In this document: positions 13,332 to 19,066 of the stretch, piece after piece
Numbering within the stretch: the first letter of the stretch is position 1
Layout of the letters: the number at the start of each line of letters is the position of its first letter
Translations under genes and position numbers: made by a program
The notes under the pieces: model-generated
Seen by the model: only the letters and a program-made list of their open reading frames with translations
Databases searched by the model: none
Told to the model about the DNA's origin: nothing
From: a virus
Lineage: Duplodnaviria; Heunggongvirae; Uroviricota; Caudoviricetes
Virus record (IMG/VR): IMGVR_UViG_3300048577_000420
Span: 1-22,578 of that record
DNA: 22,578 nt
Reading direction: 5' to 3' (one strand)

Positions 13332-14081
13332 TCAACGGAAGATGTCGTGGGTGTGGATCGTGGGGTCGATGCCGGGCCGCTTGAGGCGGGTCACGTGCAC
13401 CCCGTCTCGCTGGCTGACGGCGAAGGTGCGGACGGCTGAAGGGCTCCAGTGCGGGTGCCGTGCGAGCTGCTCCGCGTGGGCCTCGCGCCACGCCGCGCAC
13501 CAGGCCTCCGCCTCCTCGCGGCTCAGGTGGGCTGACCACACGTGCTCGTCCCTGCGCATGGGGTTGGTCTCGGTGACGCACCACGTGCCCGGCGGTAGGA
13601 CGGCCTCCTCCTGGAGGGCGTCGAGGTAGAGGTAGGCCCGGAGCCGGGCGCCAGGCTCGGGGTGCGTGAACAGCGCAGGCAGCGCCGCCAGCATGGCCGC
13701 GGGGTCGGGCATGACCTCCTCGGTGTCCCGAGGGCTCATCGGCGGTGCGGTGTGGTGGCCGTTCTGCGCCAGGAAGGGCTTCAGCTCGGGGAGGTTGGCG
13801 GGCGGCCACGCCGCCGGCCGCTCCTCGTCCAGGTGGACGTACGGCACGACGTGGGCGATCCGGTACTCGCCGTCCTCATCCCAGTAGGCCAGCTGGATGC
13901 CCTCGGGAGTCGTGCTCATCGAGGCCATCGGGTCGCCGCTCTGGTTGTCGTGGATGATGACGTCGTCGCCCTCCTCCTCCCCATTGGGGAGGCGGAGGGC
14001 GAACCAGAAGTCGCCGCTGAGCGAGAAGGCGTGCACACCCGGCTGCGGCTCGTCGGCCTCCAGGTCCTCCTGGGTCGTCAC
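13332..14081 (-). CDS. Hypothetical protein with acidic N-terminal region (249 aa)
   Basis: GTG start overlapping the Ku stop (GTGA); sits between ku and the ligase gene. Confidence 0.75.
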   Translation of the reverse strand: MTTQEDLEADEPQPGVHAFSLSGDFWFALRLPNGEEEGDDVIIHDNQSGDPMASMSTTPEGIQLAYWDEDGEYRIAHVVPYVHLDEERPAAWPPANLPELKPFLAQNGHHTAPPMSPRDTEEVMPDPAAMLAALPALFTHPEPGARLRAYLYLDALQEEAVLPPGTWCVTETNPMRRDEHVWSAHLSREEAEAWCAAWREAHAEQLARHPHWSPSAVRTFAVSQRDGVHVTRLKRPGIDPTIHTHDIFR

Positions 14082-14917
14082 GCGACGGCCGCCTTCTTGC
14101 GCGACCGCGGCGCCTTCTTCGTCGCCGCGCCGGCGCCCGCGACCTGCGCGGCGAGCTTCGCCATGAGGTCGGCGACGTTGGCGGCCGGCGTCGCGACGGT
14201 CGCGCCCTCGGTGGCGATCACCTCGCGGCCGGCCACGATCTCGGCCATGCGCTTCTCGAAGGTAGAGGCGTAGGTCTCGGGGTCGTAGTCGGTGATCTGC
14301 CCGGGGAGCGCGAGTATCTGCTCGGCGAGCTGGACGAGCGCCTCGGGCACGTCGGCGTCGATCGCCGGCGCCTCGCGGACCTCGCCGGCACGCGTCCGCT
14401 CCTGCAGGACCAGCGCGCCGCCGTACACGCGCACCTGGAACTGGGAGGCGGAGGATCGGGGCGTCCACTGGGTCATGAACGCCAGGTCGGGGTGGGCCTC
14501 GATGAGCGCCCGGAGCGTGCCGTAGGTCGCCTCGTGGCCCTTCTCGGGCGCGAGGAAGTACATCTTCTCCCCCACGCTCGTGAGGACCTCGACCTGGGGC
14601 GCCGGGTGGGCGGAGACGTCGGCCTTCTTCTTGAACTTCTCGGCGTCGGCGTTCGCCTCCGCCAGGTCCTCCGCGGTCAGGAGGACGAGTCCGCCCTCGA
14701 CCGGCCGAGCCTTCTTGAGCTGCTGGGCGGGCACCTCGCCGCACGTGCCGCAGACCCGCGGCTGGCTGATGCGCTTGGGCTCGTGGCTCCCGAGCCCGTC
14801 GCAGACCATGACGTTGCCCGTGCTGCCGGTCTTCTCCAGCGCCGAGGTCATGCTGACCGAGGTCGAGATGACCCCGAAGGACAGGGCCACGCCCGAGGCG
14901 ATGCTGCGTGCTGCCAT
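14078..14917 (-). CDS. ku: Ku-like DNA end-binding protein (279 aa)
   Basis: MAARSIASGVALSFGVISTSV (compare Ku MR.IW.G.ISFGLV.IPV), RISQPRVCGTCGEV, VLLTAEDL, YFLAP, and a basic Lys/Ala tail KKAPRSRKKAAVA. Divergent. Confidence 0.85.
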   Translation of the reverse strand: MAARSIASGVALSFGVISTSVSMTSALEKTGSTGNVMVCDGLGSHEPKRISQPRVCGTCGEVPAQQLKKARPVEGGLVLLTAEDLAEANADAEKFKKKADVSAHPAPQVEVLTSVGEKMYFLAPEKGHEATYGTLRALIEAHPDLAFMTQWTPRSSASQFQVRVYGGALVLQERTRAGEVREAPAIDADVPEALVQLAEQILALPGQITDYDPETYASTFEKRMAEIVAGREVIATEGATVATPAANVADLMAKLAAQVAGAGAATKKAPRSRKKAAVA

Positions 14918-17035: not shown

Positions 17036-17371
17036 CTACTCCCCGAGGAGCGCGCCCCGGACGTACGCGCGGGCCTTCTCCAGGACCACGTCGGCCGGGA
17101 TCGAGTGGTCGCCCTCGGGTACCCACGGGCCGTGCGTGTCGTCCGGGTCGTCGTCGCCGTAGGCGTGACCGGCCAGGAACTGCGCGGCGGCCTCGACGTC
17201 CTGGGACGCGACCGCCATGAGCGTCGCCATCGTGTCGGCCTCGGAGCACGTCATGTAGCTGCCGACGTCGTGGCCCAGCTCGGCGCTGCCGAACGTGTCG
17301 GCGAAGGCGGTGGCGGCCGACTGGATGAGCGCGAGGCGGGCCTCGGCGGGGGTCGTCGTGGAGGTCGTCAC
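17036..17371 (-). CDS. Acidic hypothetical protein (111 aa)
   Basis: GTG 17371 with AAAGGAG SD, which overlaps operator copy C. Confidence 0.75.
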   Translation of the reverse strand: MTTSTTTPAEARLALIQSAATAFADTFGSAELGHDVGSYMTCSEADTMATLMAVASQDVEAAAQFLAGHAYGDDDPDDTHGPWVPEGDHSIPADVVLEKARAYVRGALLGE

Positions 17372-17379
17372 GGTGATGC

Positions 17380-17403
17380 TCCTTTCTGCTGGCGCAGGAA
17401 TCG
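17380..17403. promoter_or_regulatory. Palindromic operator-like motif, copy C
   Basis: The reverse complement of 17381-17405 matches 9053-9077 at 21/25; one half-site is GCAGGAATCG. Confidence 0.55.
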
Positions 17404-17416
17404 CGCGGGGGATGAC

Positions 17417-17452
17417 TCGGCCCCGCTGCGCGGGAGGTCGCAGCGGGGCCGA
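17417..17452 (-). other. Perfect 14-bp hairpin downstream of the methyltransferase gene (terminator or processing site)
   Basis: TCGGCCCCGCTGCG / CGCAGCGGGGCCGA with an 8-nt loop. Confidence 0.65.
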
Positions 17453-17471
17453 AGGATGGGGAGGTCGGGGC

Positions 17472-18494
17472 TCAGGAAGCGGTGACGAGGTCGCCACCGA
17501 CGTACGGGATCGCCCGGTCGACCGCGTCGATGCGGCGGCCCAGCCAGGCGGCCGTGCCGGTGTGGATCGCGTTGCCGAGCGCCGTCCACCGCTGGCTGTC
17601 GGGCATCCCCTCGGTCCAGCCGTCCGGGAAGCCCTGAAGGCGCTCCCACTCGGTGAACGTGAGGGTGCGGAGGCGCCCGTGCTGGGCGATGAGGTGCGTC
17701 TGGCGGAGGGCGTTGCCGGAGTCGTTGCCAGTCAGCGTGTTGGTGTGCGTGGCCGGGACCCAGGTCTCGTAGCCGCCGGCAGAGAGCGCGGCGCGAGCTC
17801 GGGCGGACTTGCGCCAGATCACGGCTCCAGCAGGTCCGACAGGGCCTGGAGCAGGGCGGGGTCCGCCTTCGAGCCCGCCGAAGCGACGCGCGGCAGCAGC
17901 TTGCGCGCCTGCTCCGTCGTCACCCAGAACCGCCCATGCGGGTCGGGGGTCTCCTCCACGATGGCCGACCACGAGAACTCGACGGCGTCGCTGGGCTGTA
18001 CCGAGGTGTCCCCCGTCCACCACCCGGTAGGCCCACCCATACCCGAGGTCTTCCAGTCCACCCGCGACGGCAGCGAAGTCGTGCCCGGTCCGGCGGGGAC
18101 TCGTGAGAAGCCCTTCGGGGTTCTCGATGACGACCCATCGGGGTCGGGTCTCGTCGACCAGTCGGAGGTGCTCTTCGAGGAGTCGGTGGAACTCCCAGAA
18201 GAGGCCGGAGCGAGTGCCAGCGAGCCCAGCACGGTTGGGGGCGGCGATGCTGGTGTCCTGGCAGGGGAAGCCTCCGCAGAGGAGGTGGGGTCGCCCGAGG
18301 GCGGTCGCCTTGACGTCACGGATGTCTCCTTCCAGGGGGGTCTCGGGGAAGTGCCGGCGGAGCACCGCCTGGGCGGCCGGGTTGATCTCGACCATGAGGT
18401 TGTTGTGCCAGTTCAGCGGGGCGAAGCCGACCTCGAAGCCGCCGATCCCGGTGAAGGTCGAGGCCCACTCGAAGGGCTCTCGGCGCGCGTCCAC
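17472..18494 (-). CDS. C5 cytosine DNA methyltransferase, large polypeptide (340 aa)
   Basis: Start re-called to GTG 18494 (GGAGG SD). Motif I FTGIGG, IV GGFPCQ, SGLF, VI ENP, VIII QRRRRV, IX-like ERLQGFPD, X LGNA. Confidence 0.92.
   Translation of the reverse strand: MDARREPFEWASTFTGIGGFEVGFAPLNWHNNLMVEINPAAQAVLRRHFPETPLEGDIRDVKATALGRPHLLCGGFPCQDTSIAAPNRAGLAGTRSGLFWEFHRLLEEHLRLVDETRPRWVVIENPEGLLTSPRRTGHDFAAVAGGLEDLGYGWAYRVVDGGHLGTAQRRRRVLVVGHRGGDPRPAWAVLGDDGAGAQAAAARRFGGLEGGPRPAPGPVGPAGAVIWRKSARARAALSAGGYETWVPATHTNTLTGNDSGNALRQTHLIAQHGRLRTLTFTEWERLQGFPDGWTEGMPDSQRWTALGNAIHTGTAAWLGRRIDAVDRAIPYVGGDLVTAS
17819..18319 (-). CDS. Nested alternative-frame ORF, candidate small (beta) subunit of the methyltransferase (166 aa)
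   Basis: GTG preceded by AAGGAG at 6-nt spacing; C-terminal WKTSGM...WWT...QPS...FSWSAIVEE...RFWVT...LLQAL resembles the beta polypeptides of M.EcoHK31I-type enzymes. Confidence 0.7.
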   Translation of the reverse strand: MTSRRPPSGDPTSSAEASPARTPASPPPTVLGSLALAPASSGSSTDSSKSTSDWSTRPDPDGSSSRTPKGFSRVPAGPGTTSLPSRVDWKTSGMGGPTGWWTGDTSVQPSDAVEFSWSAIVEETPDPHGRFWVTTEQARKLLPRVASAGSKADPALLQALSDLLEP

Positions 18495-18505
18495 GGTGCC
18501 TCCTC

Positions 18506-19066
18506 TCAGGGGTGCAGGAAGGGGTCCAGGAGGGCCTGGACCTGGGCCACGACGCTGACGGGCGCCGTGTAGCGACGGGTGAGGAGCATCTGGCGGCCGC
18601 GGAGCACGACGCCCGTGGGGACGCCCCACTCGACGGTGACGCGCTCCTCGGCGTCGATCGCGCCGATCTGGCTGGCGAACGCGGCGACCTGGGCCTCGAC
18701 GTCGGGGTTGGGCTCGTCCATCGACACACGCGGCTCGTGCTCGTCGAGGGCGCGGTCCCAGTGGTCGTACCGCGTCCACGTCATGCCGAGGCCGATGTCG
18801 TAGAGGCCCTCGGCGTCCGGCTCGATGCGGCTCGGGGTCTCCGGGTACTCCGGGCTCGTGACGACGAGGGTTTCGCCGTCGAAGACCCACGTGTCGAGGG
18901 TCACGGCGTACGGGCTCGCCGCCGTCAGGACGGCGATCTGCTCGATGACGCGCCGGTTGGTCATCCACTCCGCCCAGCCGTTCCAGGCGCGGAGGAAGTA
19001 CCCCTCGAACGCCGGGTCGGGCTGGTCGTCGCCGGTGAACCAGTCACCGGTGAACCAGGTCCTCAC
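18506..19066 (-). CDS. Hypothetical protein (186 aa)
   Basis: GTGA overlap start at 19066 with GGAGG SD; FEGYFLRAWNGWA motif. Confidence 0.75.
   Translation of the reverse strand: MRTWFTGDWFTGDDQPDPAFEGYFLRAWNGWAEWMTNRRVIEQIAVLTAASPYAVTLDTWVFDGETLVVTSPEYPETPSRIEPDAEGLYDIGLGMTWTRYDHWDRALDEHEPRVSMDEPNPDVEAQVAAFASQIGAIDAEERVTVEWGVPTGVVLRGRQMLLTRRYTAPVSVVAQVQALLDPFLHP

What the first reader, a model, noticed from the sequence alone, without database searches (positions are those of the whole stretch)
17472..18494. Gene within a gene: two-polypeptide cytosine methyltransferase with an apparently unusual split
A 166-codon +1-frame ORF (17819-18319) lies entirely inside the MTase gene. Its SD is built from main-frame codons GAA-GGA (L-E-G-D-I-R), atypical for this GC3-rich region, giving AAGGAG 6 nt before GTG. 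Its C-terminal half looks folded and conserved while the overlapping main frame after motif VIII is a low-complexity Ala/Gly/Pro linker. Known: M.EcoHK31I has a beta subunit encoded in an alternative frame that carries motif IX. Here the IX-like ERLQGFPD stays in the main frame, so the nested product would instead supply the segment following motif VIII. No cognate restriction gene is adjacent. Standard annotation would miss it.
Basis: partly seen in the sequence, partly recalled or inferred. Interest (0 to 1): 0.8.

Follow-up and report, generated by a model that had tools for sequence, protein, structure and literature searches.

The report
Methyltransferase gene with nested second gene
This prophage DNA cytosine methyltransferase gene carries a second, conserved protein-coding gene one base out of step inside it, whose product most likely clamps onto the enzyme as a small subunit; only one such enzyme (M.EcoHK31I) is described in the papers I could search.

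Summary
Window 17472-18494 (minus) encodes a complete 340-aa C5 methyltransferase. The 166-codon +1 ORF (17819-18319, AAGGAG 6 nt before GTG) lies inside it.

It is not a high-GC accident.
- In 17 homologues (49-75% identity) the +1 frame has no stop where synonymous shuffles expect about 27.
- All 17 keep a start codon and a purine-rich ribosome site there.
- Rare codons are frozen across motifs VII-VIII.
- In the main-frame linker the +1 frame is the better conserved one (51% against 34%).

Among 331 fetched C5-methyltransferase loci, the helical module of the nested protein lies in the +1 frame in 266. In 45 it is an in-frame C-terminal extension.

Enterobacterial loci that match the published description of M.EcoHK31I carry a homologous nested ORF (hhalign 98%). 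There it also holds motif IX; here motif IX stays in the main chain.

A complex prediction supports binding but does not show it (0.87; best control 0.00).

Best reading: a two-chain enzyme, a variant of the M.EcoHK31I layout. Translation and requirement are untested. This scan has reported nested methyltransferase subunits on many other genomes.

The parts
17472..18494 (-). Main-frame C5 cytosine methyltransferase gene, 340 aa, motifs I-X and TRD all in one frame; GTG start with GAGGAGG 5 nt upstream
   Evidence: PF00145 E 4e-42. Aligns to M.HhaI 14-172 and 235-317. AF2 model matches M.HhaI, TM 0.68/0.70. More than 5000 homologues, mostly 320-350 aa.
17819..18319 (-). Nested +1-frame ORF, 166 codons including GTG start, TGA stop at 17821-17819
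   Evidence: Open in 17/17 homologues against 26.8 stops expected. The upstream part alone expects 18.1 stops and has none.
18326..18331 (-). Shine-Dalgarno-like AAGGAG for the nested ORF, 6 nt before its GTG, built from main-frame GAA GGA
   Evidence: GGA or GAG at this Gly/Glu codon gives GGAG or GGAGGA in 14 of 17 homologues; the other three have other purine-rich runs (L253, L255, L257: AAGGGGA/AAAGGA-type).
18029..18055 (-). Codes nested residues 89-97 (W-K-T-S-G-M-G-G-P), the predicted beta-strand that pairs with the enzyme's motif VII strand; the same DNA codes main-frame E-D-L-G-Y-G-W-A-Y
   Evidence: Rare codons are fixed in all 17 homologues here: TAT 17/17, GGG 17/17, GAA 14/15. Lowest-error predicted contacts are nested 91-94 with MTase 154-158.
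17822..18064 (-). Conserved C-terminal half of the nested protein (residues 86-166), under selection at the amino-acid level
   Evidence: Alignment A3 has mean column identity 69%. The profile finds 487 cluster representatives and a +1-frame hit in 232 of 331 MTase loci.
17828..17917 (-). Codes the nested two-helix hairpin (residues 135-164); the same DNA codes the main-frame linker (residues about 193-222)
   Evidence: AF2: nested helices 135-146 and 154-164 have pLDDT 82-90. Main-frame residues 193-217 have pLDDT below 50. Nucleotide diversity is inverted here, main-frame codon position 1 > 2 > 3. Amino-acid identity is 0.51 in +1 against 0.34 in the main frame.

Best explanation
One stretch of DNA encodes two polypeptides that probably form one enzyme.

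The main frame gives a complete HhaI-like C5 cytosine methyltransferase: motifs I-VIII, a loose linker, a small TRD, then motifs IX and X.

A ribosome starting at the internal GTG (18319), just upstream of motif IV, reads the +1 frame and makes a 166-aa protein. Its first ~85 residues are a Ser/Thr/Pro-rich stretch that is kept open but evolves freely. Its last ~80 residues are conserved: a short strand (W-K-T-S-G-M-G-G), a Trp-rich loop and a two-helix hairpin.

Inferred mechanism. The strand adds onto the motif VII strand (residues 154-158) of the catalytic domain, which I take to be the edge strand. The helices pack against the hinge and small domain. The small chain thus acts as a clamp or accessory subunit that stabilises the DNA-recognition half. 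Nesting guarantees co-inheritance and co-expression.

It is the counterpart of the beta chain of M.EcoHK31I, minus motif IX, which this enzyme keeps in the main chain.

Shown here: purifying selection on the nested frame, its homology to the M.EcoHK31I-type nested ORF, and natural in-frame fusions of the module. Inferred only: translation, binding and need for activity.
For: 1. Selection on the frame.
- 0 stops against 26.8 expected in 17 homologues; the +2 frame and the flanks behave as expected.
- The upstream, non-conserved part alone expects 18.1 stops and has none, so the frame is read from near motif IV.

2. Start signal. ATG or GTG falls in a 6-codon window in 17/17 (chance per sequence 0.2-0.6), through alternative synonymous pairs: CGT-GAC gives GTG, CGC-GAT-G gives ATG. 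A purine-rich site lies upstream.

3. Synonymous sites frozen on non-preferred codons (TAT, CAT, CGT, GGA, CGA) in all homologues that share the residue (15-17 of 17) across columns 163-212. Four-fold sites elsewhere are scrambled.

4. In the linker the wobble pattern fits the +1 frame and the +1 protein is the better conserved one.

5. Breadth.
- The +1 module is present in 266 of 331 C5-MTase loci from many phyla.
- The frame stays open for 111-300 codons even at 41-45% GC.
- The first start lies a median 18 codons before motif IV, as it does here.

6. Link to the enzyme.
- In 45 loci the module is an in-frame C-terminal extension of the MTase.
- In 38 loci the nested ORF also carries motif IX.

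7. Link to M.EcoHK31I. Kluyvera, Klebsiella and E. coli loci have a 309-aa main chain without motif IX and a 176-aa nested ORF with Met at 17 and 26. This matches the description in PMC2836561. Profile-profile match to the window's family: 98%, E 1.7e-13.

8. Complex prediction.
- Score 0.87, best of 3 controls 0.00. That mark was reached by 58 of 80 solved complexes and 2 of 110 mismatched pairs.
- The runs share at least 51% of contacts; partner pLDDT is at least 63.
- This supports binding; it does not show it.

9. Consistency with experiment. The published loss of alpha-beta association on deleting 42 N-terminal residues of M.EcoHK31I beta (PMC2836561) removes exactly the W-S-N-S-G-M strand homologous to the predicted contact strand.
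Against: - No expression, proteomic or ribosome-profiling data for this gene or for any type-A relative.
- The main chain has all ten motifs and a whole HhaI-like fold, so it may be active alone.
- AF2 folds only the last two helices of the nested protein with confidence; residues 1-130 have pLDDT below 50.
- Part of the profile similarity (the strand region) is forced by the conserved motif VII-VIII DNA underneath, so only the helical part is independent evidence of protein-level homology.
- The helical part of the window's own family is divergent. A profile of it alone found only 18 loci. The link to the wider module rests on the full-domain profile and on hhalign.
- Identification of the enterobacterial loci as M.EcoHK31I rests on matching published features, not on a named sequence record (one search shows no such name).
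- The alignments given to the complex predictor were my own, so its calibration counts hold only roughly.
Confidence: 0.75

Rival explanations
1. The nested ORF is a real, selected gene, but its product acts independently of the methyltransferase (for example as a regulator, a replisome- or host-binding peptide, or an anti-defence protein). It is an overprinted passenger, not a subunit.
For: The main chain is complete on its own. The nested protein has no Pfam or PHROG family. Most of it is predicted disordered, as is common for overprinted viral proteins.
Against: The module is fused in frame to the MTase in 45 loci. It shares a polypeptide with motif IX in 38 loci. It is homologous to the M.EcoHK31I-type nested chain, which published work shows is needed for methylation. 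The complex prediction passes with controls at 0.00. In this sample every module hit lay inside or fused to an MTase gene; free-standing copies outside MTase loci were not searched for.
Confidence: 0.12
2. The +1 sequence is expressed not from its own start but by a programmed +1 ribosomal frameshift from the methyltransferase frame. That would give a truncated enzyme with an alternative C-terminal tail.
For: Some database proteins join motif I in frame to the +1 stretch (P0141, P0153, P0177). Synonymous freezing at columns 163-212 could also hide a shift signal.
Against: A start codon plus ribosome site is conserved in 17/17. A +1 stop lies just upstream of it in 8 of 17, so the frame cannot be entered from further upstream. 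The frame is kept open for about 95 codons upstream of the conserved part, which a late shift would not need. M.EcoHK31I beta works when expressed from a separate plasmid, and silent removal of its start codons abolishes activity (PMC2836561). The joined database proteins are as easily explained by indels that expose an already open frame.
Confidence: 0.08
3. There is no second protein. The ORF is a high-GC accident, and the frozen synonymous sites reflect a nucleic-acid constraint (RNA structure, regulatory or recombination site) or an antisense gene.
For: At 71% GC long alternative-frame ORFs are common, and a 425-codon antisense ORF covers the same gene.
Against: The frame stays open at 41-45% GC in relatives. 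In the linker the nucleotides do vary, and they vary so as to keep the +1 amino acids: identity 0.51 against 0.34, and main-frame codon position 1 is the most variable. All three antisense frames carry stops in the homologues. The protein-level profile finds the module in frame as a C-terminal domain elsewhere.
Confidence: 0.03

Closest known systems
M.EcoHK31I (E. coli HK31, YGGCCR), the alpha/beta C5 methyltransferase of Lee, Kam & Shaw 1995, as described in PMC2836561 and PMC3404938
   Same: The second chain is encoded entirely inside the first chain's gene in another reading frame. The nested ORFs are homologous over the strand plus helical module (hhalign 98%, E 1.7e-13). The size is similar (176 against 166 aa). 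The N-terminal stretch overlaps the catalytic motifs. Annotation pipelines miss it: only the main-chain (alpha) CDS is annotated there, and the nested ORF is not.
   Different: In M.EcoHK31I the nested chain carries motif IX and the main chain lacks it. Here motif IX, the TRD and motif X are all in the main chain, and the nested ORF stops right after the helical hairpin. The nested start lies about 18 codons before motif IV here, and about 17 codons after it in the EcoHK31I type. EcoHK31I sits beside a convergent gene of unknown function, possibly its endonuclease. The window's gene sits among phage early genes with no recognisable endonuclease.
M.AquI (CYCGRG), a two-chain C5 methyltransferase split in the variable region (PMC3404938)
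   Same: A natural two-polypeptide C5 methyltransferase. A few relatives in my sample (L057, L068, L074, L157) have the +1 ORF in the same frame as motifs IX-X (separated by a stop in the three loci inspected), which resembles this end-to-end split.
   Different: M.AquI divides the canonical motifs between two successive chains. Here nothing canonical is divided, and the second gene is wholly nested.
Single-chain relatives with the module as a C-terminal extension (45 loci, e.g. L011, L102, L178, L198; Bacteroidales, Clostridiaceae, Cyanobacteriota)
   Same: Same helical module (consensus Y-Y-L-[ST]-P-x-A-A-x-G-I-L-R-R), preceded by a Trp/Gly-rich stretch, attached to the same kind of C5 methyltransferase.
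   Different: There it is translated in frame after motif X as part of one chain. Here it is a separate product of an overlapping frame.

Membership tests
C5 cytosine DNA methyltransferase (PF00145, HhaI-like) | Motifs I (F-x-G-x-G), IV (P-C-Q), VI (E-N-x), VIII (Q-R-R-x-R), IX (R-x-L-T-x-x-E-x-x-x-L-Q-G-F-P) and X (G-N-A) in one chain, in canonical order | tested here: met
   PF00145 E 4e-42. Two-segment alignment to M.HhaI 14-172 and 235-317. All motifs are visible and conserved in 32 homologues.
C5 cytosine DNA methyltransferase (PF00145, HhaI-like) | Two-domain HhaI-like fold | tested here: met
   AF2 pTM 0.75. Foldseek best hits are M.HhaI, E 5e-17, TM 0.68/0.70. The small domain has low confidence, pLDDT 45-57.
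M.EcoHK31I-type two-polypeptide methyltransferase | Second ORF lies entirely inside the first gene in another reading frame | tested here: met
   17819-18319 lies inside 17472-18494, +1 frame.
M.EcoHK31I-type two-polypeptide methyltransferase | Nested chain homologous to M.EcoHK31I beta | tested here: met
   hhalign of A3 against A4 (22 nested ORFs, including the Klebsiella L215 and metagenomic L132 loci that fit the published beta: 176 aa, Met17, Met26): 98%, E 1.7e-13, 78 columns. Caveat: the first third of the match is forced by the shared MTase DNA.
M.EcoHK31I-type two-polypeptide methyltransferase | Motif IX is on the nested chain and absent from the main chain | tested here: not met
   Motif IX is in the main frame, and the nested ORF ends before it. 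The window belongs to the 168-locus 'type A' class, not the 38-locus EcoHK31I class.
M.EcoHK31I-type two-polypeptide methyltransferase | Nested chain is translated on its own, and both chains are needed for methylation | not testable with these tools
   Only indirect support: conserved start and ribosome site, and a complex prediction of 0.87 against a best control of 0.00.
M.AquI-type split methyltransferase | Motifs I-VIII on one chain and IX-X on a second, successive chain | tested here: not met
   All ten motifs are in one frame.

The most novel reading that the evidence does not exclude
Most members of a very large clade of phage, prophage and restriction-modification C5 cytosine methyltransferases are obligate two-chain enzymes. 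Their second chain is a strand-plus-helical-hairpin clamp that carries no canonical methyltransferase motif. It is hidden in the +1 frame of the catalytic gene (or fused after motif X in a minority). M.EcoHK31I would then be one special case of a general and unannotated rule, and the form seen in this window would be the commonest.
Probability: 0.45. Interest if true: 0.85.

Novelty: new variant of a known kind. Interest (0 to 1): 0.74.

Why it matters
If the nested chain is made and binds, three things follow.
- Enzymes annotated as ordinary single-chain Dcm-like methyltransferases are really two-subunit holoenzymes. Cloning the annotated frame with recoded codons, as is routine in synthetic genes, would silently delete a subunit.
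- This could explain inactive or altered recombinant phage methyltransferases. It bears on predicting phage methylation and restriction evasion.
- It gives a deep, well-sampled case of long same-strand dual coding in bacteria and phages: hundreds of lineages, 41-73% GC. That makes it a useful test bed for how two proteins co-evolve on one DNA.

It also shows that genome annotation misses the second chain even for the experimentally characterised M.EcoHK31I type in RefSeq E. coli genomes.

Tried and rejected
- Nucleotide search of INPHARED phages with the gene found nothing. tblastn there found only relatives at 45% identity or less.
- Pattern-based locus scans with the single protein returned only distant relatives, because generic motifs dominated. 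They later proved useful as the broad sample. Close homologues came from exact-protein look-ups and an alignment-based viral scan. Two look-ups gave no DNA.
- Pfam on the nested protein and its 16 homologues found nothing meaningful. PHROGs found nothing for the window's nested protein, though phrog_16143, annotated 'DNA methyltransferase', matches the EcoHK31I-type chain.
- A PDB sequence search with the nested-chain profile found no related solved structure.
- A helical-only profile from the window's own family reached only 18 loci. A broader one was needed.
- I considered that the module is the canonical post-motif-VIII segment of ordinary enzymes read out of frame. That is not supported. 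Among the 331 fetched loci no case was seen with it in frame between motif VIII and the TRD; every inspected in-frame copy sits after motif X.
- The antisense 425-codon ORF (17295-18572, plus strand) is rejected, because the antisense frames carry stops in homologues.
- The original 1995 M.EcoHK31I paper (PMC306636) is not held.
- Literature searches for a description of the 'motif IX stays in the main chain' form found none. That is absence in the held library only.

Full report
**What is there**

The window has about 71% G+C and belongs to a virus record.

On the minus strand, 18494->17472 encodes a 340-aa protein. Its start is a GTG with GAGGAGG 5 nt upstream. It is a C5 cytosine methyltransferase:
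- PF00145, E 4e-42.
- It aligns to M.HhaI in two blocks: residues 10-179 to HhaI 14-172 (motifs I-VIII) and 240-321 to HhaI 235-317 (motifs IX-X).
- An AF2 model (pTM 0.75) matches M.HhaI over nearly its whole length, TM 0.68/0.70.

So the main chain is complete. Thousands of homologues, mostly 320-350 aa, exist.

It runs 18319->17819, +1 frame, 166 codons. GTG is the first start after the upstream +1 stop. AAGGAG lies 6 nt before it, made from the main-frame codons GAA GGA.

**Is it more than chance?**

On its own, no. At this G+C, long alternative-frame ORFs abound; a 425-codon antisense ORF covers the same gene.

I therefore collected the DNA of 16 homologous genes at 49-75% protein identity: ten by exact-protein look-up and six from IMG/VR. 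I built a codon alignment from them. Five results follow.

1. Stops. The +1 frame has no stop between alignment columns 63 and 241 in any of the 17 sequences.
   - Shuffling synonymous codons within each gene, with the protein kept, predicts 26.8 stops in total.
   - Outside the region the +1 frame has 90 stops against 63 expected.
   - Inside, the +2 frame has 56 against 54.
   - The upstream part alone (columns 68-162) expects 18.1 stops and has none.
2. Start signal. Every sequence has ATG or GTG in a 6-codon window, with a chance of 0.2-0.6 each.
   - The start is reached by different synonymous routes: CGT-GAC reads GTG, CGC-GAT-G reads ATG, TGT-GGA reads GTG.
   - A purine-rich site lies upstream.
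   - In eight sequences a +1 stop sits just before it.
3. Synonymous sites. They are almost frozen at columns 163-212, on codons that a high-GC genome avoids: TAT, CAT and GGA 17/17, CGT 16/16, CGA 17/17 and 15/15, GAA 14/15. Four-fold sites elsewhere are scrambled.
4. The main-frame 'linker' (columns 209-241). Nucleotide diversity is inverted: codon position 1 is 0.50, position 2 is 0.41, position 3 is 0.37. That is the wobble pattern of the +1 frame. Mean pairwise amino-acid identity is 0.51 in the +1 frame against 0.34 in the main frame.
5. Antisense. All antisense frames carry stops in the homologues.

The sequences are related, so multiplied probabilities overstate the case. The pattern is nonetheless one of purifying selection on a second protein.

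The first ~95 nested codons are only kept open. Their amino-acid identity is 0.45, the same as the out-of-frame background. The last ~80 codons are constrained at the amino-acid level.

**The wider picture**

A profile of the conserved half (A3) found 487 cluster representatives in the 1.84-billion-protein library. Inspection showed that they read as the +1 frame of canonical motifs IV, VI, VII-VIII, followed by a helical module. Sometimes they are joined to motif IX/X or to motif I.

- With a profile of the helical part only, built from 187 nested ORFs, the module lies in the +1 frame relative to motifs I-VIII in 266 loci.
- It is an in-frame extension after motif X in 45 loci.
- It is absent in 20.

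Two main nested layouts appear:
- 168 loci are like the window, with motifs IX and X in the main frame.
- 38 loci have the nested ORF continuing into motif IX while the main frame keeps only motif X.

The nested frame stays open for 111-300 codons (median 175), even in genes of 41-45% G+C. Its first start lies a median of 18 codons before the P-C of motif IV, exactly as in the window.

**Link to the known enzyme**

The second layout fits what PMC2836561 and PMC3404938 report for M.EcoHK31I: alpha carries motifs I-VIII, the TRD and X; beta lies wholly inside alpha in another frame and carries motif IX.

Loci from Kluyvera, Klebsiella and a metagenome have a 309-aa main chain without motif IX. 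Their 176-aa nested ORF has Met at positions 17 and 26, the internal starts that PMC2836561 mentions. The main chain is common in E. coli and other Enterobacterales. RefSeq annotates only that chain.

I take these loci to be M.EcoHK31I or close orthologues. This is inferred from matching features, not from a named record.

A profile-profile comparison of the window's nested family with 22 such nested ORFs gives 98% probability, E 1.7e-13, over 78 columns. The first third of that match is forced by the shared DNA under motifs VII-VIII. The helical part is the independent evidence.

**How it probably works**

AF2 on the nested protein alone gives confidence only for two C-terminal helices, 135-146 and 154-164 (pLDDT 82-90). 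Residues 1-130 are below 50.

Those helices are encoded by the same bases as the main-frame linker. The main-frame model leaves that linker disordered: residues 193-217 have pLDDT below 50.

A complex prediction of the enzyme with the nested protein scored 0.87, 0.86 and 0.87. The best of three controls was 0.00.
- That mark was reached by 58 of 80 solved complexes and 2 of 110 mismatched pairs.
- The runs agree in at least 51% of contacts, and partner pLDDT is at least 63.
- My own alignments were used, so the counts hold only roughly.
- The result supports binding and does not show it.

In the model:
- Nested residues 89-97 pair with enzyme residues 154-158, the motif VII strand.
- The loop and helices (105-163) touch residues 181-193, 219-227, 240-247 and 261-286, that is, the stretch after motif VIII, the small domain and motif IX.

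A published result fits. Deleting 42 N-terminal residues of M.EcoHK31I beta abolishes association with alpha (PMC2836561). That deletion removes the W-S-N-S-G-M strand homologous to the predicted contact strand.

The in-frame fusions in 45 relatives tie the module to the enzyme independently.

My reading is a small clamp subunit made from an internal start. I cannot say whether the enzyme needs it.

**Rivals**

- An unrelated passenger protein is disfavoured by the fusions, the homology and the complex prediction.
- A programmed frameshift is disfavoured by three things: the conserved start and upstream stop, the need to keep ~95 upstream codons open, and M.EcoHK31I beta working in trans.
- A nucleic-acid constraint or a GC artefact is contradicted.

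**Context**

None of the ten neighbouring minus-strand ORFs has a recognisable endonuclease domain. One is Ku-like. This is consistent with an orphan phage methyltransferase, but it is weak evidence.

**Novelty**

In the literature I could search, only M.EcoHK31I is described as nested. I did not find the form seen here, a complete ten-motif main chain plus a motif-less nested chain, described in print.

This scan has reported nested methyltransferase subunits on more than 150 other genomes. At least two reports look like this form.

I class it as a new variant of a known kind.

Noticed in passing
L331:3001-4858 (E. coli S43, NZ_CP010237.1) and L182:3007-3933: The M.EcoHK31I-like 309-aa methyltransferase occurs in 81 of 5426 complete E. 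coli genomes. RefSeq annotates only the main chain; the 176-aa nested chain is not annotated. A convergent 315-aa 'hypothetical protein' overlaps its 3' end and may be the endonuclease. SIR2-family and ATP-binding genes lie next door, between integrase fragments and IS elements.
   Followed up: partly
L011, L091, L094, L095, L102, L105, L109, L114, L178, L198, L226 (about 355-365 aa after the MTase start): In 45 relatives, mostly Bacteroidales, Prevotella, Clostridiaceae and Cyanobacteriota, the helical module is an in-frame C-terminal extension after motif X, not a nested ORF (consensus Y-Y-L-T-P-N-A-A-E-G-I-L-R-R-V-D).
   Followed up: partly
L057, L068, L074, L157; library proteins P0147, P0202, P0138, P0228: In a few genes motifs IX-X (and, in the library proteins, the TRD) lie in the same +1 frame as the nested ORF; in the library proteins they are joined in one chain, in the three loci inspected a stop lies between. 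Either way it is an M.AquI-like end-to-end split. Real variants and frameshifted pseudogenes were not told apart.
   Followed up: no
window 17295-18572 (+): A 425-codon antisense ORF covers the whole methyltransferase gene. Homologues carry stops in all antisense frames, so it is a high-GC artefact.
   Followed up: yes
window 18506-18512 and 17472-17497: The upstream gene's TGA stop lies inside the purine run that forms the methyltransferase's ribosome site (C-T-G-A-G-A-G-G-A-G-G). The longest reading of the downstream ORF (17036-17497) overlaps the methyltransferase 3' end by 26 nt; its true start was not determined. This suggests tight translational coupling along a leftward operon.
   Followed up: no
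window 14078-14917 (-): A Ku-like protein (PF02735, E 6e-7) lies a few genes downstream in the same orientation. The other nine neighbouring ORFs scanned have no Pfam family.
   Followed up: no
INPHARED records such as PQ184790.1 62930-64018 (Mycobacterium phage Dove genes 107/108): Many mycobacteriophage records annotate two adjacent or overlapping 'DNA methyltransferase' CDS under one tblastn match to this enzyme. That may be the same two-frame layout, annotated piecemeal.
   Followed up: no
window 18029-18055 (-): In the predicted complex, the nested strand (residues 89-97) pairs with an enzyme strand (residues 154-158) that is encoded by largely the same nucleotides in the other frame.
   Followed up: no
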